From an uncultured archaeon (GTDB lineage Archaea > Hadarchaeota > Hadarchaeia > Hadarchaeales > WYZ-LMO6): a stretch of DNA of 64,000 bases. The position numbers and the translations under genes were made by a program. The notes beneath the pieces are model-generated. The model did no database searches. It saw only the letters and a list, made by a program, of their open reading frames with translations, and had not been told where the DNA came from. Each line of letters begins with the position of its first letter. The first letter of the stretch is position 1. Where the stretch lies: assembly GCA_938074535.1 (NCBI GenBank), contig CALJER010000015.1:1544-65543 (forward strand), written 5' to 3'. Positions 4,658-42,552 of this stretch are shown here, one piece after another.

Positions 4658-4659
4658 GG

Positions 4660-9624: not shown

Positions 9625-10367
9625 GCCGCCCCCAGGGAGGAGAGTACTCCCCACAGGGAAGGCTCTGGCGCTACGGAGGGCTCTATCCCAGATGATTTTA
9701 GAACTCTCGCCGTTTCCGGTCCGATTGCGATCACGTGGGTACTTTTAAGAAGCGATTGGAGCTTTCTTCTGGCTTTGAAGGGCAAAAAAGCTTGCATGAG
9801 CTCGAAGGAGGAACCGGAGGTGAAGACCACAAAATCTGCTCCGGTTCTAAGAGTTCTCAGAAATTTTTCGACGCCCTTTGGATCCACCACCGGCGAATAA
9901 ATCCGATACTCCTCGACGGGTATTCCTCCCTCAGAAAGGGCTCTGCGCATTAGATCATTTGCAAAGCTGCTTCTGAGCAAGGCGATCGATGAGAAGGGAT
10001 GCTCAGAGTGGTCGCTCAGGATTTCCTCGAGGAGCGCCTTGCTCGTGTATCTACAGGGCAACCTCACCTTGGTCAGGCCGAACTTCTCTAAAGAGGCCTT
10101 AGTTGAGGGTCCGACGGCGTAGAGCCTCATCTCCGATAAGCTGCGGATAATTTTTTTGGAGGGATTGACCACTCTTAGAGACCTCGGACTCAAAAATACG
10201 GCGGAGTCGTGGCGCTGATGGGATAGATTCTCTTTCAGTCTCAGAATCTCCTCCCTCTTGGGCAGAAGCCTTATGGTGCTTATCCTAAGGGGTCTGCAGC
10301 CGTATTTTTGAAAAGGAGAAGGGTCAAAAGGAGACAACGATGTTAACACAACCTTTCTGCATCTCAT
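9621..10367 (-). CDS. hemD: Uroporphyrinogen-III synthase.
   Basis: 248 aa HemD-like two-lobe protein between cobA and cfbA. Start overlaps the cobA stop. Confidence 0.65.
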   Translation of the reverse strand: MRCRKVVLTSLSPFDPSPFQKYGCRPLRISTIRLLPKREEILRLKENLSHQRHDSAVFLSPRSLRVVNPSKKIIRSLSEMRLYAVGPSTKASLEKFGLTKVRLPCRYTSKALLEEILSDHSEHPFSSIALLRSSFANDLMRRALSEGGIPVEEYRIYSPVVDPKGVEKFLRTLRTGADFVVFTSGSSFELMQAFLPFKARRKLQSLLKSTHVIAIGPETARVLKSSGIEPSVAPEPSLWGVLSSLGAA

Positions 10368-11077
10368 CGGAGGAACACCTCCGCGACGCGCCCTATTACC
10401 AGGACGCCAGGAGCTTTTTCCCTTCGTGAGGTATTCAAGAGATCCTTGACGCGGATGAGCTCTTTCCTGACGCGAGAACCGGTGGAGGTTATGATTGCTC
10501 CAGGGGTTTCAGGATCAATTCCGCCCTCAATGAGGTTCCTGGCCACAAAGGAAAGGTTCCTCATTGACATGAGGAGAACCAACGTTCCGGGGAACTTGGC
10601 ATGCCTCTTCAGATACTCCCCTTCGTCCTCGCTACCCGCCAAGCTCCCACTCAGGATGACGACGGAGGAGGAAACTCCGCGCATGGTAAGCGGGATTCTT
10701 GCTAGCGTCGGCAGCGCAACTGCCGAGGTGAGGCCGGGCACCACTTCCACCTCTATTCCCTCTGCCTCGAGGGCCTGGAGCTCTTCGCCACCTCTGCCAA
10801 ACACGAAAGGGTCGCCGCTTTTCAACCGAACAACACAAAGCCCCTCCCTTGCAAAGTTTTTCATCAAGTCAACGATCTCCCGCTGTTTTTCCGGGCCCTC
10901 TCCGGGCTCTTTTCCCACATAGATGATTTTCGCCCCCTTCTTGGCTATATTTAGAATACTCTCGTCCACAAGACGGTCGTGGAGTATTACATCCGCTTCC
11001 GAGATTATCCTGTGAGCCCTTAGGGTGAGATTATCGATTCCAAGAACACCGGCGCCAACCAGATAGACTCTACCCTT
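10364..11077 (-). CDS. cobA: Uroporphyrinogen-III C-methyltransferase (SUMT; precorrin-2 forming).
   Basis: GRVYLVGAGVLGIDNLTLRA, VVRLKSGDPFVFGRGGEE and PGLTSA motifs of TP-methylase family. GTG start at 11077, so the listed N-terminal extension is rejected. Confidence 0.85.
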   Translation of the reverse strand, partial: KGRVYLVGAGVLGIDNLTLRAHRIISEADVILHDRLVDESILNIAKKGAKIIYVGKEPGEGPEKQREIVDLMKNFAREGLCVVRLKSGDPFVFGRGGEELQALEAEGIEVEVVPGLTSAVALPTLARIPLTMRGVSSSVVILSGSLAGSEDEGEYLKRHAKFPGTLVLLMSMRNLSFVARNLIEGGIDPETPGAIITSTGSRVRKELIRVKDLLNTSRREKAPGVLVIGRVAEVFLR

Positions 11078-11987
11078 CACGGAACTCCCTCCAGAACCAC
11101 TCCAGCTCGCGGTTGTTGAGGACGAGTTCAGCGACCCTCCTTCCGGTATCTTCGGGAGCCCCCCTTGGGAACCTGAATTCGAAAATTCTGAAATTTGACC
11201 CGTCTGCAGCGTAAAAACCGCACACAATTTTTACGGATTCGCCTTCGACCCGCGCCGTAAATCCGATGGGTGCCGAGCAACCAGATCTCATGGCCTTCAG
11301 GAAAGACCTCTCGATCGATACTTCTTCCATAGCTTCCGGCGAATTTATCAGCTGGACCAAAGATTTAACATCCGAGTCATCGCTCCTCGCTGTTATGGCA
11401 AGCGCACCCTGACCCGGGCTTGTGGGGAAGCGCTCAATGGGCATGCGCTCCCATTTCCCCCCGAGCCCAAGTCTGATCAGAGCAGCTTCTGCGACCACTA
11501 TGCCGTCGTATTTTCCTTCCCTCAGGCGTTTAAGTCTCGTATCTACGTTGCCCCTCAAATGTGATATCTCGAGGTCCCCTCTGAAACATTTGAGCTGTGC
11601 TGCTCTTCTCGGGCTGCTGGTTCCGATGATTGCTCCTTTGGGCATTGAACTGAGTGGTGAGCCCTTACGAGAGATGAATGCATCGCACGGAGAGATCCTC
11701 TCCGGAACTGCTACGACGGAGACTCCTGGTGGGAGTGAGGTTGGCACGTCTTTGAGACTGTGGACCGCGAGGTCAACATCGCCCCTCAGAAGGGCTTCGT
11801 CGATCTCCCTCTCAAAGGTTCCGCTGCCCATCTCTCTTGCTGCTAAGCTGTTCAGTTCATCTCCGGAAGTCTTTATCTTAACAATGGCAAAGTTGAAATC
11901 GCTCAAGGATTGCAATCTCTTGATGACGTGCTCGGTTTGGATGAGTGCCAACCTGCTTCCTCTACTTCCAACCCTGAGAGTTCTCAA
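11070..11987 (-). CDS. hemC: Porphobilinogen deaminase (hydroxymethylbilane synthase).
   Basis: LRVGSRGSRLALIQTEHV N-terminus and dipyrromethane cofactor Cys region. TTG start at 11987 directly after the hemL stop. Confidence 0.85.
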   Translation of the reverse strand: MRTLRVGSRGSRLALIQTEHVIKRLQSLSDFNFAIVKIKTSGDELNSLAAREMGSGTFEREIDEALLRGDVDLAVHSLKDVPTSLPPGVSVVAVPERISPCDAFISRKGSPLSSMPKGAIIGTSSPRRAAQLKCFRGDLEISHLRGNVDTRLKRLREGKYDGIVVAEAALIRLGLGGKWERMPIERFPTSPGQGALAITARSDDSDVKSLVQLINSPEAMEEVSIERSFLKAMRSGCSAPIGFTARVEGESVKIVCGFYAADGSNFRIFEFRFPRGAPEDTGRRVAELVLNNRELEWFWREFREG

Positions 11988-13234
11988 CCAGACCACCCAC
12001 CAGCGATAGCGGAAGAAAAAACCTCTGCTGTCTTTTGCAGATCTTCTTCGGTGTGAGCCACGGATAGAAAGCAGCACTCAAACTGGGAGGGCGGTAAGAA
12101 GACGCCCCCCTCCAGCAGGAGAGCTTGTAACTTCAAAAATCTATTTGTATCACATTTTCTGGCATCTTCAGCATTTCTCAGGCGGTTCTGCGTCAGAAAA
12201 AGCGTGAAGATCGAGCCCATCCTGTTTATCTGAGCGGGGATTCCGGCATCCTCGAGAAGATCCTCCAGGGCAGAACACAGACGCTCGGTCTTAGATTCCA
12301 GCTCAGCGTACACAGAGTCCCTGAGTCTCCTCACCACCGACAGGCCCGCAGAGGTGGCCACAGGGCTTCCGTTGAACGTTCCCGCGTTGTACACTCTGCC
12401 GGCTGGAGCAACCATTTCCATTAGCTCCCTCCTGCCTCCAAAGGCGCCGATGGGGAAGCCCCCCCCTATTATCTTTCCGAGCAAGGTTATGTCGGGCCTC
12501 AGGCCGAAGAGTTGCTGTGCTCCCCCCTTAGAGAGGCGGAATCCCGTAATAACTTCGTCGAAGATCAGGAGTGCTCCAGCTTCATCGCACGCTCTCCTGA
12601 GCTCTCTCAGAAAGCCTTTTTCTGGCGGGATCAATCCCACATTGCCCATTACAGGTTCCACTATAACACAGGCGACGCTCTCGTCAACGATATCTAAGGC
12701 CTCGAAGTCGTTGAAGGGTATGACTTTGGTTTTGTCGAGAAGATCACCCGGTATCCCTTCGCTGATGGGCGATTTGCTGGATTCAACACCATTCACTAAA
12801 AGTGAGTCCACCGCTCCGTGGTAGCAACCATCGAACTTGACGACCACCTCTCTTTTGGTAAAGGCCCTGCACAGCCTGATGGCGTTCGTAGCTGCCTCCC
12901 CTCCGGAGTTGACAAACCTAATCATCTCTATCGAGGGAACTGATCGGATGATCTCTTCGGCCAACTCCAGTTCGGCTAGGTGAGGTGTTCCAAAGAGAGT
13001 CCCCCTGCGCACCTGCTCATGAACTGCCTCGATCAAAAAATCTGGGGAATGACCAAAGATAAGAGGGCCGTAGGCCATGCAGAAATCGATGAGTTCTCTT
13101 CCGTCTTCAGTTATGAGGCGGGATCCCTTGGCTGAGGAGGTAAAGAACGGGTAGGGTTTGAAAAACCTAACCGGGCTGTTCACGCCGCCGGGGAAGACCC
13201 TTTTACTTCGAAGGAACAGGTCTTCGGATTTCAT
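11984..13234 (-). CDS. hemL: Glutamate-1-semialdehyde 2,1-aminomutase.
   Basis: 416 aa class-III aminotransferase; LIFDEVITGFR, VFPGGVNSPVR motifs. Confidence 0.9.
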   Translation of the reverse strand: MKSEDLFLRSKRVFPGGVNSPVRFFKPYPFFTSSAKGSRLITEDGRELIDFCMAYGPLIFGHSPDFLIEAVHEQVRRGTLFGTPHLAELELAEEIIRSVPSIEMIRFVNSGGEAATNAIRLCRAFTKREVVVKFDGCYHGAVDSLLVNGVESSKSPISEGIPGDLLDKTKVIPFNDFEALDIVDESVACVIVEPVMGNVGLIPPEKGFLRELRRACDEAGALLIFDEVITGFRLSKGGAQQLFGLRPDITLLGKIIGGGFPIGAFGGRRELMEMVAPAGRVYNAGTFNGSPVATSAGLSVVRRLRDSVYAELESKTERLCSALEDLLEDAGIPAQINRMGSIFTLFLTQNRLRNAEDARKCDTNRFLKLQALLLEGGVFLPPSQFECCFLSVAHTEEDLQKTAEVFSSAIAGGWSG

Positions 13235-14202
13235 GACTGTTCTTCCCTTAAGGCCTTTACAACCTCGGGAGCGTAGTACGATATTATGATGTCTGCTCCC
13301 GCCCTCTTTATCGCGGTGAGAGCTTCTAGAAAAACCCCTCTCTCGTCTGTGTCAGTGCTTTTGCAGTATTCCTTGAGCATAACGTACTCCCCACTCACTT
13401 GATACGCCGCCAGTGGGCAAGTCAAAATTCTTCTGAGCTCGCTGATGACATCGAGGTACGGCATGGCAGGTTTGACCATCACCATATCCGCCCCCTCCTG
13501 TATGTCCTGGAGAGCTTCCTTAACGGCTTCCCTCCTATTCCTGAAGTCCATCTGGTACGAAGAACGGTCGCCGAAAGCCGGGGCGGAAGACGCGACCTCT
13601 CTGAAGGGGGAGTACAAAAAGGATCTGAACTTGGCGGAGTAGGACATTATGCCCACATCCTCAAAACCACCTTCGTCTAGAGCGCTCCTTATCGCCGACA
13701 CCTGACCATCTGCCATAGCCGAGGGAGCAACGATGTCAGCCCCGGCTTCGGCGTGGCTAACCGCTATCCTGGACAGTATTGAAAGGGTTTTGTTCCTGTG
13801 AATCCTACTTCCTTCGAGTATACCGCAATGACCGTGGTCAGTGTACTGACAGAGGCAAACATCTGTGAGGATGTTAACAGGGGGCAGGGACGCCTTAATA
13901 GCTCTTATCGCTCTCTGGACCACTCCGTCGCCGCTGTAAGCATGAGATCCCAGGGAGTCTTTCGATGAGGGTACACCAAAGATGAGAAAGGAACGGAGGC
14001 CTGAGGCTATGTACCCCGACAGGTACTCCACAAGGCCAGAGAGGGGCACCTTTTCCATACCGCCCCAGCGGGATCTCTCAATGTCGCCAGTCTCTTTGAC
14101 AAAGATGGGATAGATGAAGTTGTGGGGAGCCAAGGCGGTCTCAGAGACGAGGTCCCTCAATATCTTGTTGCGCCTAAGCCTGGATGTGATTGTTTTTTTC
14201 AT
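13231..14202 (-). CDS. hemB: Porphobilinogen synthase (delta-aminolevulinate dehydratase).
   Basis: 323 aa; active-site lysines and metal-site region (VMVKPAMPYLDV...). Overlaps hemL start and hemA stop. Confidence 0.9.
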   Translation of the reverse strand: MKKTITSRLRRNKILRDLVSETALAPHNFIYPIFVKETGDIERSRWGGMEKVPLSGLVEYLSGYIASGLRSFLIFGVPSSKDSLGSHAYSGDGVVQRAIRAIKASLPPVNILTDVCLCQYTDHGHCGILEGSRIHRNKTLSILSRIAVSHAEAGADIVAPSAMADGQVSAIRSALDEGGFEDVGIMSYSAKFRSFLYSPFREVASSAPAFGDRSSYQMDFRNRREAVKEALQDIQEGADMVMVKPAMPYLDVISELRRILTCPLAAYQVSGEYVMLKEYCKSTDTDERGVFLEALTAIKRAGADIIISYYAPEVVKALREEQS

Positions 14203-15383
14203 TCAAAACCCTCCGACTTTGCTCCGGAGTTTGCTATGGAGAAGATGATATCACGCATAAAGGCATAGGTGAACTCCTCGATGACCTTTTTCTGGTCCTC
14301 TGTGAAAGCACACTTTCTGAAGGCGAAGTCGACGGCCTCTCTTCTCTTAACTTCAGCCCAACGCATCAGCATTTCAAAATTCGTTTTCCTGTCCCCCAAC
14401 TTTAGCCTCCCGATCAAAGCCCTCAGCGAGTCCTCGATAATCCTTTCAGCTTCTTTTACAGCTTTTTTCCTAACTCTGAGGTTGTTTTTCGCGATACTGC
14501 TTATGAGATCGAAATCAATCAGTTCTACTCCTCCAACATGCTTTATTCCTTCATCAACGCCTCTTGGGTTCGAAACGTCCAATATCAAAAGACCATTCAA
14601 TTTCAGGCCCTCCAAATCCTCCTTTTTGAGGATGGGATGGGGGGAGGAGGTGGCGCAGACGACGGCATCGGCATCGGCGATAACTTCTTTAAGCCCGTCG
14701 AAGTGCACGGCTCTTCCCCCTACTTCACTCGCGAGACGTTCAGCTCTTGAGTAGGTTCGATTTGCCACAAAGATGGTCACGGTTCCCTTGCGGGGCACGG
14801 ATTTTGCGACCATGCTTCCTATCCTGCCGGCACCGATTATGACCAGCTTCCTTCCCTCCAGGGACCCAAGCTTTTCGGTTATGATTTTTATGACCACATT
14901 CCCCAGCGAAATCGAGCCTTTGGAGATGGAGGTTTCGCGCCTTACAACTCCGCCGCAATTTATGGCTGCGCTGAAGACCGATTCCATGGTTGATTTAGCA
15001 GTTCCCAAAATTTTTGCTCGCTCTAAGCTCTCTCGAATCTGATGCAGGATCTCTGTCTCGCCAACTATTACTGACTCCAGTCCCGCGGCCAGATAAAAAA
15101 GGTGGCGGACAGCGTCATAGCCCTCAAAAAGTTCCGCGTACGGCTCAAGTGGGTACGCGCTGTTGGTAGAGTTTCTTAAGAATTCTTTGAGCAGTTCCCC
15201 GCTCACGTTTGAACCGGAAGCGTAGATCTCCACTCTGTGGCAAGTTTGAACTATAACGCACTCCTCTGCTCCTTCCTTCTTAAGTTGAATTAATGCTGAT
15301 TGGGGGTCGGTCAGGGTGAAACTTTCCAACACTCGAATTGGTGCCTTTTTGTGGTTGAGCGTTAAACAGTATATGGGAATCAT
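14199..15383 (-). CDS. hemA: Glutamyl-tRNA reductase.
   Basis: HKKAPIRVLE and CHRVEIY catalytic Cys motif, then a GAGRIG NADPH-binding domain. ATG at 15383 chosen over the listed 15437 extension. Confidence 0.85.
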   Translation of the reverse strand: MIPIYCLTLNHKKAPIRVLESFTLTDPQSALIQLKKEGAEECVIVQTCHRVEIYASGSNVSGELLKEFLRNSTNSAYPLEPYAELFEGYDAVRHLFYLAAGLESVIVGETEILHQIRESLERAKILGTAKSTMESVFSAAINCGGVVRRETSISKGSISLGNVVIKIITEKLGSLEGRKLVIIGAGRIGSMVAKSVPRKGTVTIFVANRTYSRAERLASEVGGRAVHFDGLKEVIADADAVVCATSSPHPILKKEDLEGLKLNGLLILDVSNPRGVDEGIKHVGGVELIDFDLISSIAKNNLRVRKKAVKEAERIIEDSLRALIGRLKLGDRKTNFEMLMRWAEVKRREAVDFAFRKCAFTEDQKKVIEEFTYAFMRDIIFSIANSGAKSEGFE

Positions 15384-15763
15384 CGATCTCAACATGGTCA
15401 AGTTTGAATTTATTCTTTCTTGTTTCATATGAAACAAAAAAGTGAAGGGATCGAGCCAATGAAATGAACGTTTGTACGAGGAGGCTTTATTGGCCGATCA
15501 GCTTGCCGACCGACCCCTGTCTTGCAAAGTGTCTTCCCCCCGGCTCGCGGAGCCCTTCCGGGTGCCCCTTCCCGCGCACATTACCGCCTCCCTTCTCCAC
15601 GCAGCACCCTCTCCGCCGCCCCCCTCAGTCTCGCACAGGTATCCCACCAGGATCTCGTCCATGCTGGTGCCCCCAGCTGGGTGTCCCCGCTGGTGCTCTT
15701 CACCCCGACCCCTCCCCTTCCCGGGAGGAAAGCTTCCGCCCCGGGCCTCTCCCCCTTGGTGGA

Positions 15764-15840
15764 TGGCGGGCCCGTCGGGATTCGAACCCGAGTTGCAGGC
15801 TCCGCAGGCCTGTGTCTTATCCAGGCTAGACCACGGGCCC
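15764..15840 (-). tRNA. tRNA-Arg (anticodon GCG), CCA encoded.
   Basis: Reverse complement GGGCCCGTGGTCTAGCCTGGATAAGACACAGGCCTGCGGAGCCTGCAACTCGGGTTCGAATCCCGACGGGCCCGCCA folds as a cloverleaf (7-bp acceptor, GTTCGAATC T-loop, anticodon loop CTGCGGA). tattaat TATA-like element about 25 nt upstream on its strand. Confidence 0.85.
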
Positions 15841-36310: not shown

Positions 36311-36880
36311 ATGAGGGAGCTGCTTTCCGTCTACCTCTCCACCTGGGTGCTGGGTCCTGTGGGGGGTACGGCGTGCGCCTCCCTGGAGGGCTTCCAGCCG
36401 GGGGAGATCCTCCTCCTCGTCACCCTCAGCAATGCCCTCATCGCTCTTTTCTGGCTGCTGGTGGCGGAGGTCCTCTTTCGCAGATGGGGGAGCATCCTCC
36501 CCCTGCTCGGGAGGGAGAAGAGGGGAGCGCTCGCCCTCACCAGCCTGGGTTTGCTGGCGTTCTCCCTTGGTTCGATGGTGGCCGTGATGACCGCCTACGC
36601 ACTGGGAGTGGGGAGGAAGGCCTTTCCCCTCATCGCCCCCTGCGCGGTGGGAAGCGGCGCCCTCTGGACCATGGGTGCCCTGGGTCTCCTCACCTTTCTC
36701 CCCCCCCTCTGGCTCTACCTGGCCGCCCTGGCGGCCACCCTCCTCCTCGTCTCCACCAGGGTTTACTGCAGGAGGGAACTCCTCAGGCAGGTCCTCAGGA
36801 GCCGGAGAAAGGGGCGGCCCGGAGTGATGCCTGGGGACCGAGAGCTGGGAAGTAAGGCGGGGTTACGAAGGGTTCGCTAA
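36311..36880 (+). CDS. Hypothetical integral membrane protein (5-6 TM).
   Basis: 189 aa, multiple hydrophobic helices; no motif recognised. Confidence 0.45.
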   Translation: MRELLSVYLSTWVLGPVGGTACASLEGFQPGEILLLVTLSNALIALFWLLVAEVLFRRWGSILPLLGREKRGALALTSLGLLAFSLGSMVAVMTAYALGVGRKAFPLIAPCAVGSGALWTMGALGLLTFLPPLWLYLAALAATLLLVSTRVYCRRELLRQVLRSRRKGRPGVMPGDRELGSKAGLRRVR

Positions 36881-38902
36881 GAGCCCCTCGTACCTTTCCC
36901 GGAATCTCTCCCAGTACTCCCTCGCCGTCCCCTTCTTGTCCTCTTGGAACCTCGCCCACCACTTCCTCCCGCTCTCGCTCTTCTCCGAGAATTCCCTGGC
37001 CATGCCGGCCAAGACGTCCACCACCCTCTCACCCTCGAAGAAGACGGGGCCTACCCCCGCCCTCCTGTTGTACTCGGCGATCCTCCGGAGGATCTTCCTG
37101 CAGTGGGCATCGTAGTCCACCTTCACCCCCCAGGCCTCCTCCAGCAGGCTTGGGAGGATGCGCTCGCTCCATCCCCTGTGGAACCTGCAGAGGCCGTTGT
37201 TCTCCGAGTACATCTCCTTCACCGCCCTCTGGTAGCAGAGCTCCGCGAATTCCTCTGGTTCCCTGAACTCGGAGTGGTAGAAGGTGAAGTACTTGCCTTG
37301 GATGGGCACGGGCATGAAGTTCCCCGGGCTCCAGTACATGGCGGGGGTGATGGAGCCACCCTGCCCGAAGGCCACGTATACCGCCAGGTCCTCGAACCTC
37401 TTCCCCAGCCCCCTCACCCTCTCCCCGAACCTGCGGGTGAACTCCCTGGCGGCCCTTCTCACACCCTCCCCCACCCAGCGTGAGAGTTCGTTCTCGCCGT
37501 AGGCCACAGCCCTCGCCAGCCTTTCCAGGAGCGCCGCGTTCCTCTCGGAGTCGGCGGGGTCGAAGGAGAGGGGGTCGAAGGAGGGCTTCCCCTCAAGCCC
37601 CAGCTCTTCCGGCAGCAGGAGCCCGAGGTGGAGGCACCCGAAGATCCAGCCGCAGGTGTTTCCAAACTCGATGGCATCGAAGCCCAGAGAGTCCACGGCA
37701 TACACGGCCCTCTCGGCCGCCCTCTGGTCAAAAATCCCGCAGTTGGGACCGTTGGCTTCGTAGGGCTCGTAGTCCTTTTTGTACTTGTCCCTCACCTTCT
37801 TGCACACTCCCGGACAGGGCTCCCCGCAGTTCTTCCAGACCTTCGCCTTCACCCACGGCCTGGAGGTGGGGGAAGAGAGCTCCAGGGAGGGGCGCAGGTG
37901 CCTCCTGGAGGTGATTTCCTCGTCGAACTGCTTCAGGTACCTGGAGCGGATCAGCCTCTCGTAGAGCTCAAGCCTCTTTTCCTTGGGGAGGGCCACCGTT
38001 CCCCAGCCGAACATGATCGCCATCTCCCTCAGCACGAAGTAGTTCACCCCGAAGGTGCCCCCGGAGCCCACCGAATCGTCGTACCTGTACTTGACGGTGG
38101 CCTCTGAGGCCGCCTTCATCACTCCCCTCCCCACCAGCTTCCTGAAGGTCTCGTCCGCTTCCTCGGGGTCTGCCAAGTTGGTTCCAGAGAACTTCCTCCA
38201 TTCGTTCCTCCCTCCCACGACCAGGGCCACCACCCCGTGGGCCCTCGCCATCACCGAACCCGGGCCCCCTCTGGCTGCCCAGTCTTCCGATCCCAGCTCT
38301 CCCCTGTCTCCCTTCACCGCGGAGGAGAAGATCCCGCCCAGATTGGTGTGGAGGGAGGCGGGACCCACACAGAGCACCCGGTACTCCATAGGGCCCCCCC
38401 TCCGCCTGTACCACCCCCCGAACTCTTCCAGTATGAAGTCCTGGAGGGCGTAAACCCCCTCCTCCCCCCCGTGTCCGCGGTAAATTTCCAAAAGCTCCTG
38501 CGGGGGAATTTCCCTAAATCTGGATTCCAGTCCTGAAGGAGTGCCTCTGAGGGCCACCGCCAGGGGGGTGCTTGCCTTTCCCTCCAGCGTCAGGTAGTCC
38601 ACTCCGAGATGGCGGAAGGCGTAAGCCGCTCCCCCTATGGTGGAAAAGAAGAAACCCTCCCAGAGGGGTGAGCGGAAGCAGAGGGTGAGGCGGTGGGTGC
38701 CCGGTATGCAGCTGCCCGCCAGCTTACCCATTCCCAGACATAGCACGTTGTGTTCGTCGTAGGGGGAATGGAGATAGCTCCGGTAGAGGTCCAGATGACA
38801 GCGTACCCCCCAGTCCACCGGTCCCAGGATTTCCGGGTCACTCACCTCCGACACGCGCAGTTCTTCTTTCCCCGCGTTCAGGAAGGCCACGCGATTCTCC
38901 AC
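36863..38902 (-). CDS. Aldehyde:ferredoxin oxidoreductase (AOR) family, divergent long member (tungstopterin/4Fe-4S enzyme family).
   Basis: 679 aa. N-terminal AOR_N-like region (NVLCLGMGKLAGSCIPG...GVDYLTLEGKA), central cysteines (CGEPCPGVC). Confidence 0.75.
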   Translation of the reverse strand: MENRVAFLNAGKEELRVSEVSDPEILGPVDWGVRCHLDLYRSYLHSPYDEHNVLCLGMGKLAGSCIPGTHRLTLCFRSPLWEGFFFSTIGGAAYAFRHLGVDYLTLEGKASTPLAVALRGTPSGLESRFREIPPQELLEIYRGHGGEEGVYALQDFILEEFGGWYRRRGGPMEYRVLCVGPASLHTNLGGIFSSAVKGDRGELGSEDWAARGGPGSVMARAHGVVALVVGGRNEWRKFSGTNLADPEEADETFRKLVGRGVMKAASEATVKYRYDDSVGSGGTFGVNYFVLREMAIMFGWGTVALPKEKRLELYERLIRSRYLKQFDEEITSRRHLRPSLELSSPTSRPWVKAKVWKNCGEPCPGVCKKVRDKYKKDYEPYEANGPNCGIFDQRAAERAVYAVDSLGFDAIEFGNTCGWIFGCLHLGLLLPEELGLEGKPSFDPLSFDPADSERNAALLERLARAVAYGENELSRWVGEGVRRAAREFTRRFGERVRGLGKRFEDLAVYVAFGQGGSITPAMYWSPGNFMPVPIQGKYFTFYHSEFREPEEFAELCYQRAVKEMYSENNGLCRFHRGWSERILPSLLEEAWGVKVDYDAHCRKILRRIAEYNRRAGVGPVFFEGERVVDVLAGMAREFSEKSESGRKWWARFQEDKKGTAREYWERFRERYEGLLANPS

Positions 38903-39181
38903 TCAACCACCAGCGGCGGGAGGAAGGATCATCAGCAGGTCTCCCTCCTTCACCCCCGTTTTCCCCCCTTCCAGCAGTTTAACGTTCCTGCCGTTCAGGA
39001 GGAGGACGAAGGAGGGGAGGAGCCTTCCGTCCTTCCCCAGGCTTCCCAGCTCCTCCAGCTCCTTCCGGAACCTCCTTTCGAACTCCCTCACCACCTCCTC
39101 CACGGTCCTTCCCTCCACCTCCACCTCTCCTGCTATTCTCTCCGTGAGGATGAGACCGGGTTTGACCCTCACCTTTGGCAT
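38903..39181 (-). CDS. MoaD/ThiS-like beta-grasp small protein ending in Gly-Gly (SAMP-type ubiquitin-like sulfur carrier).
   Basis: 92 aa ending ...LMILPPAAGG. Immediately upstream of, and co-directional with, the AOR-family gene. Confidence 0.6.
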   Translation of the reverse strand: MPKVRVKPGLILTERIAGEVEVEGRTVEEVVREFERRFRKELEELGSLGKDGRLLPSFVLLLNGRNVKLLEGGKTGVKEGDLLMILPPAAGG

Positions 39182-39271: not shown

Positions 39272-39287
39272 CCTTCAAATTTAAATC
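39272..39287 (+). promoter_or_regulatory. TATA-like element (caaatttaaatcggg) upstream of phaE.
   Basis: A/T-rich box about 25-35 nt upstream of ATG 39309. Confidence 0.4.
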
Positions 39288-39308
39288 GGGAAACTCCGAA
39301 AGTAAGAG

Positions 39309-40217
39309 ATGTCCCTGTCAAGGGAGGAGCTGATCGAGCTCTTCAGAGAGGCACCGAAGGAGTCCTTCGAGCTCCTGCTGAGGAACCTGAGGATAAGGGA
39401 GCACCTCCGGATCCTCCACGCCAAGCACGTTGCGGGGCTGAAGCTCTCCTACGATGAGAACTTCGACAGGATCTTCGAGGAGTTCTTCCGTTTCTTCTTC
39501 CGTCCGCTCGAGAGTGCCATCCACGGGACCAGGCAGCTGAGGTTCCTTTTTTTCATGTTTGATTTCGGCCTCATGGAGTCGCAGAGCGAGACCTTCCGCG
39601 CCTACTCCGACTTCCTGAGGAGCTGGCTGGAGCACCTGAGGCTGACGTCGGAGCTGATGATGGGAAGGGTTCTTCCCGTTTCTATGGCGGATGTCTTCAG
39701 GGAGTTCATCCGGACGTACAGGAGCAAAGTGGAGAGCCCGGCGATGGATTTTGAGTATCCCGTGGAATATCCCTTTTTGCTCCCCAAGAGCGTTCTGACG
39801 GACCTGGAGAGGTCGGTCGAGCACTGGGAGAAGTTCTCGGAAGCCTTCAGGGAGTACAGGAAGATCATAAAGGAAACATACGTGAGGGCCGCGGAGGGGT
39901 TCATAGAGGAGGTCAACAGGAGGAGGTTCGAGGGTTACCAGGAGTTCGCCGGGGTTTTCTCCGAGTTTGAGGCCAGGGCCTTCGACGAGCTGCTGAAGTC
40001 GGAGGGCTATCTGGGAGTCCAGAGGTCCATGCTGGACAACCTAATGGACTACATCTATTTCTACCGCAGGTTCTCCGAGGGGATGCTGGAGTCGAACCCG
40101 ATGAATCCCTTCGCCACGGTTTCGATGCTCGACGAGGCCTTCAAGAGGATACTGGAGCTCAAGAGGAGGGTTTCAGAGCTTGAGAAGAAGGTCTCGCGGC
40201 TGGAGGGGAGCAGGTGA
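39309..40217 (+). CDS. phaE: Putative PHA synthase subunit PhaE (class III), coiled-coil C-terminus.
   Basis: 302 aa helical protein with C-terminal KRRVSELEKKVSRLEG coiled coil. Stop overlaps phaC start (4 nt). Assignment rests mainly on position and partnership with phaC. Confidence 0.5.
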   Translation: MSLSREELIELFREAPKESFELLLRNLRIREHLRILHAKHVAGLKLSYDENFDRIFEEFFRFFFRPLESAIHGTRQLRFLFFMFDFGLMESQSETFRAYSDFLRSWLEHLRLTSELMMGRVLPVSMADVFREFIRTYRSKVESPAMDFEYPVEYPFLLPKSVLTDLERSVEHWEKFSEAFREYRKIIKETYVRAAEGFIEEVNRRRFEGYQEFAGVFSEFEARAFDELLKSEGYLGVQRSMLDNLMDYIYFYRRFSEGMLESNPMNPFATVSMLDEAFKRILELKRRVSELEKKVSRLEGSR

Positions 40218-41191
40218 TAGTGGAGAAGATCAGGGGGATAAAACCTGGCCCCTGTGAGTACGAGACAGTTTACGAGGATGCCCCCTTCAGATTGCACAGG
40301 TTCAGGGGTGAGGTGGGGCACAAAACACCGGTGCTGGTGAACTACGCCTTCATCAACCGCCCGTACGTGCTGGACCTGCACCGCGACGTGAGCGTGATAA
40401 GGCTTCTGCTCGAGGCCCGGCTGGGGGTCTGGATGATAGACTGGGGTTACCCCTCCCTGGCGGACAGGCACTTGAGGATAGAGGACTACGTGAACTTCAT
40501 AGACACCTGTGTGGGGAAGGTTGGCGAGCACACGGGCGCCGATAAAGTCACGCTGTGGGGTTACTGCCTGGGGAGCACCCTCTCCGTCATTTACGCCTCC
40601 CTCCATCCCGAGAAGGTCAGGAACCTCGTCGTCCAGACCCCCCCCATCAACTTCAGCACCCAGAATACCTTGGCCCTCTGGGCGAGGAGCATAGACCCCG
40701 AGAAGGTTTCCAGAGCGCTTTTCAACGCCACGGGAGATTTTTTGAACCTGGCCTTCCTGCTGGTGGATCCGGTCAGGCTGGTCATCGGCAAATACCAGTC
40801 GCTGCTGGACAGCCTGGAGGATGAAAAGAGCGTCAAGGATTTCTTCTACATGGACCACTGGATTTTCGATTCTCCTGCCGTGGCCGGGAAGGTCTACGAG
40901 GAGTACATCACCCGGTGGTACCAGAGGAACGAGGTGATGGAGGGAAGGTTCACGGTGGGCGGGAGGAAAGTCGACCTGGGGAGGGTGAGGATGCCCCTCC
41001 TGGTCCTGGCCGCTGCCAGGGACCACATAACACCCCCCGAGAGCGTCCTCCCCTTCTTCGAGGCCGTTCCTTCACAGGATAAGAAGATGCTGCTTTCGGA
41101 CAAGGGGCACATAGGGCTGACGGTGAGCCGCTCCTCCCACGCGAAGATATGGCCGGAGGCGATCAGGTGGGTGGTGGAGAGGTCGGACTGA
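40214..41191 (+). CDS. phaC: Poly(3-hydroxyalkanoate) synthase catalytic subunit PhaC, class III.
   Basis: Alpha/beta-hydrolase with lipase-box GYCLGS (G-x-C-x-G), a catalytic Asp in LLVLAAARDHITPPES and a His in KGHIGLTVS, spaced as in class III PhaC. Size 325 aa. Confidence 0.85.
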   Translation: MIVEKIRGIKPGPCEYETVYEDAPFRLHRFRGEVGHKTPVLVNYAFINRPYVLDLHRDVSVIRLLLEARLGVWMIDWGYPSLADRHLRIEDYVNFIDTCVGKVGEHTGADKVTLWGYCLGSTLSVIYASLHPEKVRNLVVQTPPINFSTQNTLALWARSIDPEKVSRALFNATGDFLNLAFLLVDPVRLVIGKYQSLLDSLEDEKSVKDFFYMDHWIFDSPAVAGKVYEEYITRWYQRNEVMEGRFTVGGRKVDLGRVRMPLLVLAAARDHITPPESVLPFFEAVPSQDKKMLLSDKGHIGLTVSRSSHAKIWPEAIRWVVERSD

Positions 41192-41634
41192 AGGAGGTCT
41201 CCAGCTTCTACTCGGAAGCCGGAGGGGAGCTGAAGGAGTTCAAGAAGCTCGACGGCGAGCTGACGCCAGGCTCCAGGATAACCTACGAGAAGAGGCTGAC
41301 CGAGGTCGATGTGGCCTTCTTCGGCCTGGCTTCCGGCGATTTGAATCCCCTACACTTCGACGAGGAGGCGGCCTCCAGGACGAGGTTCGGAGGGAGGGTC
41401 GTCCACGGGATGCTGACGGCCAGTCTTGTTTCGGCGGCCGTGGCCAGAATCCCCGGCACCGTGGTCCTGCTGGAGGAAGGCTTCAAGTACCTTGCTCCCG
41501 TGAGGGTGGGGGATACGGTGAGGGTGGAGGGCGTGATCAGCGAGAAGGAAAAAAACAGGTACAGGATTGAGGTGAAGTGTTCGGTTGGTGGGAAGGTCGT
41601 GGCTGAAGGTTATGTAAGAGTACTGGTGTGGTGA
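41149..41634 (+). CDS. phaJ: MaoC-like (R)-specific enoyl-CoA hydratase (PhaJ-type hot-dog fold).
   Basis: FFGLASGDLNPLHFDEEAA...RVVHGMLTASL hydratase motif. Start uncertain (ATG 41149 or GTG 41167) and overlaps the phaC end. Confidence 0.75.
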   Translation: MAGGDQVGGGEVGLKEVSSFYSEAGGELKEFKKLDGELTPGSRITYEKRLTEVDVAFFGLASGDLNPLHFDEEAASRTRFGGRVVHGMLTASLVSAAVARIPGTVVLLEEGFKYLAPVRVGDTVRVEGVISEKEKNRYRIEVKCSVGGKVVAEGYVRVLVW

Positions 41635-41679
41635 GGCTCCGGTTATCCGGGGAGGATAAGCCGCCGTGCGGCGCCGGGC

Positions 41680-41991
41680 TCACTGTTTCTTGGGAACCGT
41701 TTTCTCAGTCATTTCCGCGAACTTGCTGAAGACCTCGTCCTGCTGCTTCTCAAAGCTCTCCACCAGCTTTCTGAAGTTCTCGAAAACCCTTTCCTGCGAC
41801 TCCAGGTAGAGGCTCATGCTCTTCTTCATGCCTTCGTAGGCTTCCGAGGGAAGTAGGCTCCGCATGTAGAGCTCATACATGTTTACGTAGCTGTCCATCG
41901 CCACCTTTATCATGTCCAGCGTGGTCTTTGCCACGGCAAAGCCCATTTTGTAGAACCCCCTTACCATTTCCAGGTAGTCCTTAAGCTCCAT
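41680..41991 (-). CDS. Phasin-like small helical protein (putative PHA granule-associated protein).
   Basis: About 103 aa all-helical, amphipathic (MELKDYLEMVRGFYKMGFAVAKTT...). tttatataa TATA box at about 42021-42030 sits about 30 nt upstream of ATG 41991, which argues against the listed 42042 start. Confidence 0.4.
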   Translation of the reverse strand: MELKDYLEMVRGFYKMGFAVAKTTLDMIKVAMDSYVNMYELYMRSLLPSEAYEGMKKSMSLYLESQERVFENFRKLVESFEKQQDEVFSKFAEMTEKTVPKKQ

Positions 41992-42053
41992 TCCAACCAC
42001 CTCTTTCCCTTCCAGAGGGGGGTTATATAAATTTTTGCTCAAACACGGGTTTC

Positions 42054-42260
42054 CTACCCACCGATGGCCACCGGGAGGATTCTTATCCTCTCGCCCTCCC
42101 TGAGCTCCTCTCCCTCCCCCAGCATTTTTCTTTCCCTGATCACCACCACCCCCCTTTCTTTCAGTCCCAGCGCCGAGAGGAGGTCCAGCACGGTGGAGCC
42201 CTCCGGCAGCTCCACCTCCCTTTCCTCCAGTTCCTCCAGCACCCTCACCCTCACCTTCAT
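42054..42260 (-). CDS. ThiS/MoaD-like small protein ending Gly-Gly.
   Basis: 68 aa MKVRVRVLEE...ILPVAIGG. Confidence 0.55.
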   Translation of the reverse strand: MKVRVRVLEELEEREVELPEGSTVLDLLSALGLKERGVVVIRERKMLGEGEELREGERIRILPVAIGG

Positions 42261-42270
42261 CCCCTTCCCC

Positions 42271-42552
42271 TCATCCCCCTCCCACGGGGGGGAAGAGGTA
42301 GACCACATCCCCCTCCCGGAGGGTGGTGTCCAGCCCCTTGAGCCAGCGTATCTCCCTTCCGTTGACCAGCACCTTCACGGTTTTCCTTAGGCTCACCCCC
42401 TCCGAGGATTCTTCCAGCAGGGCCTCCCCCAGCCCCCTTCTTTTCTCCGTGAGGCTTCTGAGGAGGGAGCGCACGTCCCCCGCCTCCACCTCCATTTCCT
42501 CGGTTCCAGCCAGTTCCCTGAACCTGGCGAAGAACTTGACCCTGACCATCAT
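42271..42552 (-). CDS. MoaD-like beta-grasp protein ending Gly-Gly-Gly.
   Basis: 93 aa MMVRVKFFARFRELAG...VVYLFPPVGGG, typical MoaD N-terminus and C-terminal diglycine. Confidence 0.6.
   Translation of the reverse strand: MMVRVKFFARFRELAGTEEMEVEAGDVRSLLRSLTEKRRGLGEALLEESSEGVSLRKTVKVLVNGREIRWLKGLDTTLREGDVVYLFPPVGGG

What the first reader, a model, noticed from the sequence alone, without database searches (positions are those of the whole stretch)
39272..42042. Class III PHA synthase module (phaE-phaC-phaJ plus phasin-like gene) in an F430-encoding, thermophile-like archaeon
ORF 40214-41191 is an alpha/beta-hydrolase with the PHA-synthase lipase box GYCLGS, an Asp in ...AARDHITPPES... and a His in ...KGHIGLTVS..., spaced as in class III PhaC. 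It is translationally coupled to an upstream 302-aa coiled-coil protein in the PhaE position and followed by a MaoC-type (R)-enoyl-CoA hydratase (PhaJ-like). A divergently transcribed small amphipathic helical protein looks phasin-like and has its own TATA box. Sampled lines in this 2.7 kb run 52-55% GC, below the about 70% neighbours, and the proteins are richer in Phe/Tyr/Met than the Glu/Arg-rich host proteins, suggesting horizontal acquisition. To my knowledge PHA synthases in archaea are mainly reported for Haloarchaea and some Thaumarchaeota; a PhaEC system in a methanogen- or alkanotroph-type archaeon would be new and would imply carbon/reductant storage.
Basis: partly seen in the sequence, partly recalled or inferred. 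Interest (0 to 1): 0.75.

Follow-up and report, generated by a model that had tools for sequence, protein, structure and literature searches.

The report
PHA bioplastic-storage operon in alkane-type Hadarchaeota
This is a well-conserved set of four genes for making and coating polyhydroxyalkanoate (bioplastic) storage granules, sitting in the chromosome of a hot-spring Hadarchaeota archaeon that also makes coenzyme F430; it is a credible but ordinary member of a known enzyme class, seen here in a lineage where it has not been discussed.

Summary
The ORFs and motifs are real. phaE (39309-40217), phaC (40214-41191, GTGA stop/start overlap) and a MaoC/PhaJ hydratase gene (41149-41634) form one + strand operon.

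PhaC best matches the class III PhaC model (315 bits, E 4e-94, below the 365-bit curated cut-off). Cys118, Asp270 and His299 align with characterised PhaCs. PhaE is a distant PhaE homologue. The small protein belongs to no known phasin family, but in Archaeoglobi it sits where phaP sits, just after a phaR homologue.

The host is a Hadarchaeota archaeon with cfbB-E. The module sits at the same housekeeping locus in every close relative recovered and is under purifying selection.

The GC argument for recent transfer fails: 57% against 64%, not 52-55% against 70%, and phaE/phaC synonymous codon usage is host-like. A neighbour-joining tree nests the Hadarchaeota clade inside an Archaeoglobi-dominated clade, so any transfer is old.

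Novelty is limited. PhaEC is experimentally established in Mcr-bearing Methanoperedens, and the Archaeoglobaceae homologues were reported in 2025. I found no paper linking PHA to Hadarchaeota. This is a new member of a known kind.

The parts
39278..39287 (+). TATA-like element AAATTTAAAT, about 22 nt upstream of the phaE ATG; suggests a leaderless or short-leader transcript
   Evidence: Read directly from the sequence. Function as a promoter is inferred, not tested.
39309..40217 (+). phaE: 302-aa non-catalytic subunit of a class III-type PHA synthase, with a C-terminal coiled-coil segment
   Evidence: ORF. TIGR01834 PhaE 23 bits and PF09712 17 bits, both C-terminal and below cut-off. 20 of 25 orthologues hit TIGR01834, best E 3e-15. 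H. mediterranei PhaE matches 39768-40202 by tblastn at E 6e-6. hhalign E 2.6e-4, probability 42%. It lies immediately upstream of phaC in all 29 genome loci. dN/dS 0.13-0.36.
40214..41191 (+). phaC: 325-aa catalytic subunit; alpha/beta hydrolase with a Cys118 nucleophile in GYCLGS, plus Asp270 and His299; GTG start overlaps the phaE stop
   Evidence: TIGR01836 class III PhaC 315 bits, E 4e-94, cut-off 365; class I 114 bits. The PDB class I PhaCs 9knj and 5hz2 align across the box, cap, Asp and His. The triad is invariant with H. mediterranei PhaC at 40% identity. dN/dS 0.07-0.18.
41149..41634 (+). phaJ: 161-aa MaoC-type (R)-specific enoyl-CoA hydratase; overlaps the phaC 3' end by 43 nt
   Evidence: PF01575 91 bits. 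GDLNPLH with Asp64 and His69. 37% identical (E 8e-28) to the granule-associated PhaJ1 (HFX_5217) of H. mediterranei (PMC4823750). dN/dS 0.16-0.19.
41680..41991 (-). Gene for a 103-aa amphipathic two-helix protein; candidate phasin (PhaP-like) from an uncharacterised family; convergent with phaJ
   Evidence: The start is set by orthologue lengths and by a 100%-identical 103-aa database entry. AF2 gives helices 3-46 and 49-98 at pLDDT 89. Hydrophobic moment z = 4.5. No Pfam, NCBIfam or PDB match, and no similarity to Hfx PhaP. In 8 archaeal loci (Archaeoglobi and unclassified) it follows a PhaR homologue, as phaP does in Haloferax. The family is tiny: about 4 clusters at 50% identity among 1.84 billion representatives. 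dN/dS 0.11-0.17.
42024..42034 (-). Archaeal TATA box AAATTTATATA for the small gene, followed by GAGGTGG just before the ATG at 41991
   Evidence: Sequence. It is the only match to WWWTTTAWATA in the 64 kb window, with 0 expected from shuffles. Promoter function is inferred.

Best explanation
This is a chromosomal, vertically maintained PHA storage module of an F430/Acr-type thermophilic Hadarchaeota archaeon.

Proposed mechanism:
1. phaE, phaC and phaJ are transcribed as one operon from a TATA-like element and are translationally coupled.
2. PhaE and PhaC form a class III-type PHA synthase. Cys118, activated by His299 and assisted by Asp270, takes the (R)-3-hydroxyacyl group from its CoA thioester and extends a polyester chain.
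3. PhaJ (Asp64/His69) interconverts 2-enoyl-CoA and (R)-3-hydroxyacyl-CoA. It therefore links the polymer to the beta-oxidation pathway that this family uses for alkane-derived acyl-CoAs. The link can run towards monomer supply, as with Aeromonas PhaJ, or towards mobilisation, as with Haloferax PhaJ1.
4. The separately and probably strongly promoted 103-aa amphipathic helical hairpin coats the granule surface as a phasin.

Likely product and role: short-chain PHA (PHB or PHBV), serving as a carbon and redox buffer when the syntrophic partner or nutrients are limiting.

Shown here: the gene structures, homologies, catalytic residues, synteny, purifying selection and host identity.
Inferred: operon expression, polymerase activity, substrate chain length, the direction of PhaJ flux, granule binding by the small protein, and the physiological role.
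For: PhaC:
- TIGR01836 is by far the best model at 315 bits; class I scores 114 bits.
- PDB class I PhaCs align through the lipase box, the cap with its conserved Trp (MDHWIFDS), the Asp and the His.
- The triad is invariant with the experimentally studied H. mediterranei PhaC.
- The nucleophile is Cys rather than Ser, which marks synthases rather than hydrolases.

PhaE:
- 20 of 25 orthologues hit TIGR01834, and there is a direct tblastn match to Hfx PhaE at E 6e-6.
- It is always immediately upstream of phaC, with a GTGA overlap here.

PhaJ:
- PF01575, the catalytic dyad, and 37% identity to granule-bound Hfx PhaJ1 (PMC4823750).

Small protein:
- It co-occurs with phaEC in 15 of 29 genome loci across Hadarchaeota, Archaeoglobi and Desulfobacterales.
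- It occupies the phaP position downstream of a PhaR homologue in Archaeoglobi.
- It is an amphipathic helical hairpin with a unique strong TATA element.

Conservation:
- The same M16-GAPOR-ThiS-[module]-SAMP2-MoaD-rpS4e synteny occurs in L001-L003 and L032-L038.
- Module identities (PhaC 79-81%) parallel those of the flanking genes (GAPOR 82-83%, rpS4e 77-78%).
- dN/dS is 0.07-0.36.

Host:
- cfbB-E are in the window.
- The closest genomes are Hadarchaeota, including WYZ-LMO6.
- All Acr-bearing Hadarchaea fall in that family and have complete beta-oxidation (PMC10811742).
Against: - No experimental evidence exists for this clade. Even the Archaeoglobaceae homologues are only predicted (10.1101/2025.05.06.652502).
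- PhaC scores below NCBIfam's curated class III cut-off (315 against 365). It lacks about 26 N-terminal profile positions, and its box reads GYCLGS rather than the usual G-x-C-x-G-G.
- The window's own PhaE is far below both curated cut-offs (23 against 155 bits; 17 against 25.7 bits).
- The small protein matches no phasin family and not haloarchaeal PhaP (hhalign probability 1%). The fold search returns only generic hairpins.
- The window holds no phaR, phaA, phaB, phaZ or beta-oxidation gene.
- The two papers on cultured alkane-degrading Hadarchaeota do not mention PHA.
- PHA has been argued to be rare in extreme thermophiles (10.1101/2025.05.06.652502).
Confidence: 0.75

Rival explanations
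1. The synthase is as described, but PhaJ mainly serves mobilisation. It would dehydrate (R)-3-hydroxyacyl-CoA released from PHA into enoyl-CoA for beta-oxidation. Monomers for synthesis would come from a PhaA/PhaB-type route (acetyl-CoA to acetoacetyl-CoA to (R)-3HB-CoA) encoded elsewhere in the genome.
For: The closest characterised relative of the window PhaJ within a pha cluster is H. mediterranei PhaJ1 (37% identity). That enzyme is granule-associated and was shown to act in mobilisation, with only a slight contribution to synthesis (PMC4823750). The reaction is reversible. The Acr-bearing family is reported to have acetyl-CoA acetyltransferase.
Against: The window has no phaA or phaB, and no PHA depolymerase was seen in the window. 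In Aeromonas caviae the phaP-phaC-phaJ cluster supplies monomers from beta-oxidation (PMC4823750 introduction). An organism living on alkane-derived acyl-CoA has an abundant enoyl-CoA pool. The two roles are not mutually exclusive.
Confidence: 0.3
2. The small 103-aa protein is not a phasin. It could instead be a regulator, an adaptor or activator of the synthase (in the manner of PhaM or PhaR), or an unrelated helical protein that simply travels with the cluster.
For: It has no similarity to any phasin family or to Hfx PhaP, and Foldseek gives only generic helical hairpins. Hadarchaeota and Desulfobacterales loci lack the PhaR homologue, so a compact protein might have taken over a regulatory or adaptor role. 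The 'Phasin family protein' label that a few UniRef entries carry is automatic.
Against: It has no recognisable DNA-binding motif. Its size, amphipathicity and helical hairpin are typical of phasins, which are known to be phylogenetically heterogeneous (PMC5658603 title and abstract). In eight archaeal loci (Archaeoglobi and unclassified) it occupies exactly the phaP slot of a phaR-phaP pair. Its own canonical TATA box fits an abundant structural protein.
Confidence: 0.3
3. The PhaC-like protein is not a PHA polymerase. It could be another alpha/beta-hydrolase-fold enzyme such as a thioesterase, acyltransferase, esterase or depolymerase, and the cluster would serve acyl-CoA metabolism without polymer storage.
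For: The score is below the curated class III cut-off. NCBI names most members of the clade only 'alpha/beta fold hydrolase'. There are weak secondary hits to DUF3141 and to depolymerase models. PHA is argued to be rare in extreme thermophiles (10.1101/2025.05.06.652502).
Against: The nucleophile is Cys rather than Ser. The full triad, the cap and the conserved Trp align with solved PhaCs. The E-value to the class III PhaC model is 4e-94, against at best 1e-5 for hydrolase models. There is an obligate adjacent PhaE homologue, plus PhaJ, plus a PhaR-PhaP-type neighbourhood in sister lineages. The Archaeoglobaceae members passed an independent check of 12 conserved residues.
Confidence: 0.07
4. 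The module is a recent horizontal acquisition (a genomic islet) in this organism, as the reader proposed from the GC content.
For: GC is about 7 points lower than in the surroundings. PhaJ and the small gene have mildly atypical codon usage (z -2.4 and -2.2). The module interrupts a minus-strand array MoaD-SAMP2-...-ThiS-GAPOR. In the NJ tree the Hadarchaeota PhaCs nest within an Archaeoglobi-dominated clade (96% bootstrap), with Archaeoglobaceae and Nezhaarchaeota as sisters (98%).
Against: GC3 and synonymous codon usage of phaE and phaC are host-like. The GC dip is in positions 1 and 2, so it reflects amino-acid composition. The insertion site is identical in every relative recovered, down to 78% PhaC identity, and module divergence equals flank divergence. 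No flanking repeats or integrase were found. Any transfer therefore predates the radiation of this Hadarchaeota family.
Confidence: 0.05

Closest known systems
Predicted PhaEC clusters of Archaeoglobaceae (Ferroglobus placidus, Geoglobus ahangari, Archaeoglobus spp.; Schroyen et al. 2025, bioRxiv 10.1101/2025.05.06.652502)
   Same: They belong to the same PhaC clade: 59-72% identity, about 325 aa, and the NJ clade has 96% bootstrap. They share the long (~300 aa) PhaE immediately upstream, the 103-aa helical protein family and often the MaoC hydratase. Neither group has been validated experimentally.
   Different: In most loci that carry the small gene (named Archaeoglobi and unclassified archaeal MAGs), a PhaR (AbrB-type) gene lies directly upstream of it. 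Several also carry a second pair, PhaE2 (170 aa) and PhaC2 (366 aa). The window and the other Hadarchaeota loci have neither. The host here is a different phylum with an Acr/F430-based alkane metabolism.
Haloferax mediterranei maoC(phaJ1)-phaR-phaP-phaE-phaC cluster on pHM300 (the experimentally characterised archaeal class III system)
   Same: The gene set is the same: PhaC with an identical Cys-Asp-His triad (40% identity), a PhaE with a homologous C-terminal region, a MaoC hydratase at 37% identity, and a small granule-protein gene.
   Different: Hfx PhaC is 492 aa with a long C-terminal extension and an N-terminal extension, both absent here. Hfx PhaE is short (182 aa against 302 aa). Hfx PhaP (154 aa) is unrelated in sequence to the 103-aa protein. 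There is no PhaR here. The gene order and strands also differ.
Bacterial class III PhaEC synthases (TIGR01836/TIGR01834 families; the Allochromatium vinosum and Synechocystis type, and PhaEC of the sulfate reducer Desulfococcus multivorans, Hai et al. 2004, as cited in PMC13597711)
   Same: The architecture is two subunits, a PhaC of about 40 kDa plus a PhaE of about 35-40 kDa, with the genes adjacent. This is the best HMM family for both subunits. Desulfobacterales MAGs carry the same four-gene set at 53-58% PhaC identity.
   Different: The window PhaC lacks about 26 N-terminal profile positions and scores below the curated cut-off. PhaE matches only in its C-terminal third. The lipase box ends in Ser rather than Gly. 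I could not align the window protein to the A. vinosum or D. multivorans sequences, because neither was available in the tools.
PhaCE of 'Ca. Methanoperedens' (ANME-2d)
   Same: This is a class III PhaC plus PhaE in an Mcr-bearing archaeon. PHA accumulation is confirmed experimentally there and interpreted as a carbon store and auxiliary electron sink (PMC8561730, PMC13046784).
   Different: None of the named hits among the 120 closest PhaC clusters (44% identity or more) is Methanoperedens, though most of those clusters carry no name. That host is a mesophilic methane oxidiser. The host here is a thermophilic lineage from a family that uses multi-carbon alkanes, where PhaJ can connect directly to beta-oxidation.
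Aeromonas caviae phaP-phaC-phaJ
   Same: A phasin, a synthase and an (R)-enoyl-CoA hydratase are clustered so that beta-oxidation intermediates feed PHA. The PhaJ catalytic Asp/His dyad is conserved (PMC4823750 introduction).
   Different: That system uses a class I single-subunit PhaC of about 590 aa (PDB 9knj), which aligns to the window PhaC only over the catalytic domain (89 bits). It has no PhaE.

Membership tests
Class III PHA synthase, catalytic subunit PhaC | Alpha/beta-hydrolase fold with a lipase-box-like G-x-C-x-G motif in which Cys, not Ser, is the nucleophile | tested here: met
   PF00561 77 bits. GYCLGS at residues 116-121 with Cys118. It aligns with GYCIGG of 9knj and GFCVGG of 5hz2 and with GYCMGG of Hfx PhaC. 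The sixth position is Ser rather than Gly.
Class III PHA synthase, catalytic subunit PhaC | Cys-Asp-His catalytic triad at the conserved positions, plus the cap region with its conserved Trp | tested here: met
   Cys118, Asp270 and His299 are invariant across 8 aligned sequences, including two H. mediterranei PhaCs. The Asp, the His and MDHW216IFDS align with class I PhaC structures.
Class III PHA synthase, catalytic subunit PhaC | Score at or above the curated cut-off of NCBIfam TIGR01836 (365.3 bits) | tested here: not met
   The score is 315.4 bits (E 4.4e-94), covering profile positions 27-350 of 350. It is the best model by 200 bits over class I (113.7) and class II (58.4). The cut-off is an annotation threshold rather than a biochemical criterion. 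NCBI names one member of the clade class III PhaC and most others 'alpha/beta fold hydrolase'.
Class III PHA synthase, catalytic subunit PhaC | Small size (about 40 kDa) without the long N-terminal domain of class I/II enzymes | tested here: met
   The protein is 325 aa. The class I model aligns only over its positions 168-463 of 532. There is no PhaC_N hit at E <= 0.01 in the window protein.
Class III PHA synthase, PhaE subunit | A second subunit, homologous to PhaE, encoded next to phaC and co-expressed with it | tested here: met
   A 302-aa ORF ends in a GTGA overlap with the phaC start. A homologue lies directly upstream of phaC in all 29 genome loci. 20 of 25 family members hit TIGR01834, best E 3.3e-15. 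Hfx PhaE matches by tblastn at E 6e-6.
Class III PHA synthase, PhaE subunit | Score at or above the curated cut-offs of TIGR01834 (154.95 bits) or PF09712 (25.7 bits) | tested here: not met
   The scores are 23.1 bits and 17 bits, covering the C-terminal third only (residues 166-299). hhalign against Hfx PhaE gives probability 42% and E 2.6e-4. This is a divergent PhaE.
Class III PHA synthase (holoenzyme) | Polymerisation of short-chain (R)-3-hydroxyacyl-CoA that requires both subunits | not testable with these tools
This needs an enzyme assay or heterologous expression.
[quoted passage not shown] | MaoC hot-dog domain above the Pfam gathering score | tested here: met
   PF01575 91.1 bits against a cut-off of 27, residues 46-145.
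[quoted passage not shown] | Catalytic Asp/His dyad (Asp31 and His36 of A. caviae PhaJ) in the G-D-x-N-P-x-H motif | tested here: met
   GDLNPLH at residues 63-69, with Asp64 and His69. The dyad is described in PMC4823750. The residues that set chain-length specificity were not analysed.
Phasins (PhaP; Pfam phasin families and haloarchaeal PhaP) | Sequence membership in a described phasin family | tested here: not met
   No phasin family appears among the Pfam or NCBIfam hits for the window protein, even at E <= 10 for Pfam. None of the 15 orthologues hits one. The PDB profile search finds nothing relevant. hhalign against Hfx PhaP gives probability 1%. The profile search of 1.84 billion representatives finds only the family itself.
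Phasins (PhaP; Pfam phasin families and haloarchaeal PhaP) | Small, amphipathic, alpha-helical protein encoded with pha genes | tested here: met
   103 aa; two helices at pLDDT 89; hydrophobic moment z = 4.5. It is linked to phaEC in three phyla and sits in the phaP slot after a PhaR homologue in Archaeoglobi.
Phasins (PhaP; Pfam phasin families and haloarchaeal PhaP) | Binds the surface of PHA granules and affects their number and size | not testable with these tools
   This needs granule proteomics or localisation experiments.

The most novel reading that the evidence does not exclude
Acr-bearing, long-chain-alkane-oxidising thermophilic Hadarchaeota (Ca. Cerberiarchaeaceae) may really accumulate PHA at 60-80 C. 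They would divert beta-oxidation enoyl-CoA through PhaJ into a compact PhaEC synthase, using the polyester as a carbon and redox buffer for a syntrophic lifestyle. The granules would be coated by a previously undescribed phasin family found in Hadarchaeota, Archaeoglobi and a few Desulfobacterales MAGs. This would be a demonstrated PHA producer among thermophilic (60-70 C) archaea and would add a carbon sink to budgets of anaerobic alkane oxidation.
Probability: 0.5. Interest if true: 0.5.

Novelty: new member of a known kind. Interest (0 to 1): 0.35.

Why it matters
If the module is active, alkane-oxidising Hadarchaeota do not only respire or ferment alkane carbon. They can also park it as polyester. 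That matters in three ways.
- It affects how growth yields, electron balances and isotope-labelling experiments are read in these slow syntrophic cultures.
- It would show that PHA granules are compatible with life at 60-80 C, which a 2025 survey found to be rare and unproven.
- It would provide a compact, presumably thermostable two-subunit PHA synthase, with a matching hydratase and granule protein, for biotechnology.

It also gives cultured relatives (Ca. Cerberiarchaeum, Ca. Melinoarchaeum) a directly testable phenotype. In itself, though, the finding is a gene-annotation result within a well-known enzyme class.

Tried and rejected
- Pfam and NCBIfam scans of the small protein and its 15 orthologues gave only noise: Vps54, DUF5098 and similar, none reaching a curated cut-off.
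- PDB profile searches with the small-protein and PhaE alignments found nothing relevant.
- The hhalign comparison of the small protein with haloarchaeal PhaP gave probability 1%.
- AF2 plus Foldseek against the PDB returned only generic helical hairpins of the EsxA type, best E 1.2. The afdb50 library was not available.
- The profile search of 1.84 billion representatives for distant relatives of the small protein found only the family itself, so it cannot be bridged to known phasins.
- Exact look-ups of the source contig failed. The cluster tables show only that the window proteins come from a 70,486-bp NCBI/ENA contig.
- The metagenome scan with rpS4e, meant to find a relative with an 'empty site', returned three relatives that all carry the module, plus distant and uninformative loci.
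- No flanking direct repeats or mobile-element genes surround the module. The sigma-70 promoter and terminator scan is not applicable to archaea and gave nothing useful.
- Searches for phaR, phaA, phaB and beta-oxidation genes in the window were negative.
- Literature searches found no paper linking PHA to Hadarchaeota. The two papers that contain both terms were not read. The two culture papers and one held supplement do not mention PHA.
- Hai et al. 2004 (D. multivorans PhaEC) is not held in the library.
- The 321-aa ORF at 40061-41026(-), antisense to phaC, and other long overlapping ORFs were set aside as artefacts of a GC-rich sequence. I did not test them.

Full report
**Observation**

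The four ORFs are present as described.
- phaE-like: 39309-40217 on the + strand, 302 aa.
- phaC: 40214-41191 on the + strand, 325 aa, with a GTG start.
- MaoC/PhaJ-like: 41149-41634 on the + strand, 161 aa.
- A small ORF on the - strand.

The phaE stop overlaps the phaC start as GTGA, with GGAGG upstream. phaJ overlaps the phaC 3' end by 43 nt. PhaC carries GYCLGS (Cys118), RDHITPP (Asp270) and KGHIGL (His299).

Two details need correcting. First, the small gene is convergent with phaJ, stop to stop and 45 nt apart, not divergent. Second, its real start is the ATG at 41991, giving 103 aa. Orthologues are 101-109 aa, and a 100%-identical database protein is 103 aa. The 120-aa TTG ORF reads through the gene's own promoter. 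That promoter holds AAATTTATATA at 42024-42034(-), the only match to that TATA pattern in the 64 kb window, with 0 expected by chance. phaE has a TATA-like AAATTTAAAT about 22 nt before its ATG.

**Identity of the proteins**

PhaC. The best model by a wide margin is NCBIfam TIGR01836, class III PhaC: 315 bits and E 4e-94, against 114 bits for class I and 58 for class II. The score is below the curated 365-bit cut-off, and the first 26 or so profile positions are missing. Solved class I PhaCs (9knj, 5hz2) align through the lipase box, the cap region with its conserved Trp, the Asp and the His. In an alignment with Hadarchaeota, Archaeoglobi and Desulfobacterales orthologues and two Haloferax mediterranei PhaCs (40-43% identity), Cys118, Asp270 and His299 are invariant. 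The haloarchaeal N- and C-terminal extensions are absent.

PhaE. The window protein alone matches the PhaE models only weakly: 23 bits to TIGR01834 and 17 bits to PF09712, in the C-terminal third. The family-level evidence is better. 20 of 25 orthologues hit TIGR01834, with best E 3e-15. H. mediterranei PhaE matches the window by tblastn at E 6e-6. hhalign gives E 2.6e-4.

PhaJ. It has a MaoC domain (PF01575, 91 bits) and the Asp64/His69 dyad. It is 37% identical to H. mediterranei PhaJ1 (HFX_5217), the granule-associated hydratase that links PHA to beta-oxidation (PMC4823750).

**The small protein**

It matches no Pfam or NCBIfam phasin family, nothing in the PDB, and not haloarchaeal PhaP. 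A profile search of 1.84 billion cluster representatives finds only about four clusters, all within the family itself.

It is, however, a confident two-helix hairpin (AF2 pLDDT 89, helices 3-46 and 49-98). Its amphipathicity is significant (hydrophobic moment z = 4.5). The Foldseek matches are generic hairpins.

The strongest functional clue is positional. In eight archaeal loci (named Archaeoglobi MAGs and unclassified archaeal MAGs) the gene directly follows, and often overlaps, a 90-aa homologue of H. mediterranei PhaR (blastp about 1e-15). This reproduces the haloarchaeal phaR-phaP pair. The same arrangement was noted in Ferroglobus and Geoglobus by Schroyen et al. 2025. The family occurs next to phaEC in Hadarchaeota, Archaeoglobi and Desulfobacterales. 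I therefore treat it as a candidate phasin from a new, narrow family, and not as a member of any described phasin family.

**Host and context**

The closest PhaC-bearing genomes are three Hadarchaeota MAGs: JZ-2_201705_bins_146 at 92%, WYZ-LMO6 at 79% and SRP104967_co1_43 at 78%. Archaeoglobi follow at 59-72%, and Desulfobacterales at 53-58%. The window PhaC shares a 90% cluster with 'Hadesarchaea archaeon' proteins.

The window encodes CfbB, CfbC, CfbD and CfbE, plus sirC and the hem genes, so the 'F430-encoding' context is correct. According to PMC10811742, all Acr-bearing Hadarchaea fall in one family (GTDB WYZ-LMO6, Ca. Cerberiarchaeaceae) with a complete beta-oxidation pathway. I infer that the window's host belongs to that family. 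The window itself has no phaA, phaB, phaZ, phaR or beta-oxidation genes. The module sits among housekeeping genes: GAPOR, ThiS/MoaD/SAMP-like genes, the ribosomal protein operon and lysine biosynthesis.

**Horizontal transfer**

The compositional argument does not hold.
- GC is 57.2% in the module against 64.0% outside, not 52-55% against 70%.
- GC3 is 0.85 for phaE and 0.83 for phaC, against 0.80-0.92 in the larger host genes.
- Under host synonymous codon usage, the per-codon log-likelihood of phaE (z -0.5) and phaC (z -0.9) is typical. phaJ and the small gene are mildly low (z -2.4 and -2.2). The cfb/hem genes in the same window are strongly foreign-looking (z -5.4 to -8.4).

The GC dip therefore reflects amino-acid composition at codon positions 1 and 2.

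The module lies at the identical site, M16 peptidase-GAPOR-ThiS-[phaE phaC phaJ small]-SAMP2-MoaD-rpS4e, in every close relative recovered from GTDB, JGI, ENA and Logan assemblies. Its divergence matches that of the flanks, and dN/dS is 0.07-0.36.

A neighbour-joining tree (57 sequences, 324 columns, 100 bootstraps) gives the following:
- The Hadarchaeota PhaCs are monophyletic (99%).
- Their sister group, at 98%, contains an Archaeoglobaceae MAG and a Nezhaarchaeota MAG.
- Both lie inside an Archaeoglobi-dominated clade (96%) that also contains the Desulfobacterales sequences.

This is compatible with an old inter-phylum transfer before the family radiated. NJ is a weak method and the deeper nodes are poorly supported. 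No repeats or integrase flank the module.

**Mechanism (inferred)**

phaE, phaC and phaJ are expressed as one translationally coupled operon. PhaEC polymerises (R)-3-hydroxyacyl-CoA through Cys118. PhaJ reversibly connects enoyl-CoA of beta-oxidation, which is the route for alkane-derived acyl-CoA in this family, with the monomer pool. It could act in supply, as in Aeromonas, or in mobilisation, as with Haloferax PhaJ1. The small, strongly promoted amphipathic protein coats the granules.

Because the PhaJ route stores carbon at an intermediate oxidation state, PHA could act as an overflow store when the syntrophic partner cannot take electrons. This is analogous to the 'auxiliary electron sink' role discussed for Methanoperedenaceae (PMC13046784).

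**Novelty**

PhaCE and PHA accumulation are already established in Mcr-bearing Methanoperedens (PMC8561730, PMC13046784). The Archaeoglobaceae members of this very clade were reported bioinformatically in 2025. For Hadarchaeota I found no paper linking them to PHA. The two papers that contain both terms were not read, and the two culture papers and one held supplement do not mention PHA.

The finding is therefore a new member of a known kind. It has a modest twist: a thermophilic, alkane-type host, a compact PhaC, no phaR, and a candidate new phasin family.

Noticed in passing
window 4076-15437 (mostly - strand), with tRNA-Arg(gcg) at 15764-15840(-): An 11.5-kb block, sirC-like / cfbB / cfbC / cfbD / cfbE / hemD-like / uroporphyrinogen-III methyltransferase / hemC / hemL / hemB / hemA, forms a sharp low-GC island. 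GC is 0.52-0.56 against 0.61-0.67 elsewhere, GC3 is 0.55-0.65 against 0.80-0.92 in the larger host genes, and codon-usage z is -5.4 to -8.4. It ends next to a tRNA-Arg gene. A 14/16 direct repeat (4106-4121 and 15758-15773) overlaps the tRNA 3' end. That could be an att-like remnant or chance, since many repeats of this size were found. No integrase was seen. The block looks like a horizontally acquired F430/tetrapyrrole biosynthesis island, a much stronger transfer signal than the PHA module gives.
   Followed up: partly
L004 7436-9045(-); also L005, L006, L008, L020, L026: Several Archaeoglobi loci carry a second, divergent synthase pair next to the first: PhaC2 (366 aa, with a PhaC_N hit, 33-37% identical to PhaC1) with a short PhaE2 (170 aa, Haloferax-like length). 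Hadarchaeota have only the long-PhaE pair.
   Followed up: partly
L004 9981-10253(-), L018 1510-1782(+), and equivalents in L005-L007, L016, L020, L025: A 90-aa homologue of haloarchaeal PhaR (motif VFRAKxQSGGRISIP, blastp about 1e-15 to Hfx PhaR) directly precedes the small helical gene in Archaeoglobi. Pfam does not recognise it at E <= 0.001. It is absent from the window and from the Hadarchaeota and Desulfobacterales loci, so regulation of the module must differ there.
   Followed up: partly
window 38903-39181(-), 42054-42308(-), 42271-42552(-), next to GAPOR 36863-38902(-): Three ThiS/MoaD/SAMP-type ubiquitin-like small proteins flank the module on the - strand, beside a glyceraldehyde-3-phosphate:ferredoxin oxidoreductase gene (NF040818, 612 bits, below its cut-off). 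The PHA module splits what looks like one minus-strand array, MoaD-SAMP2 ... ThiS-GAPOR. That may mark an old insertion point.
   Followed up: no
L021-L023, L028 (Desulfobacterales MAGs): Bacterial MAGs carry the same four-gene set in the order small gene-phaE-phaC-(tandem Usp gene in L021)-phaJ. Their PhaCs nest inside the archaeal clade in the NJ tree, which implies transfer of the whole module between domains. MAG mis-binning was not excluded: 'Marinimicrobia' and 'Leptospiraceae' labels also appear within the clade.
   Followed up: partly
window 40061-41026(-), and many other long ORFs: The GC-rich sequence produces long ORFs that overlap the real genes on other frames and strands, for example a 321-aa ORF antisense to phaC and a 235-aa ORF across the phaE promoter. 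I assumed these are spurious and did not test them. ORF length alone is not evidence of a gene here.
   Followed up: no
window 40559-40576 (PhaC residues 116-121): The lipase box of this clade reads G-Y-C-L-G-S/T/A, not the G-x-C-x-G-G seen in the Haloferax and class I enzymes aligned here. The protein is also about 30 residues shorter at the N-terminus than the class III model. I do not know whether either feature affects activity or PhaE binding.
   Followed up: no
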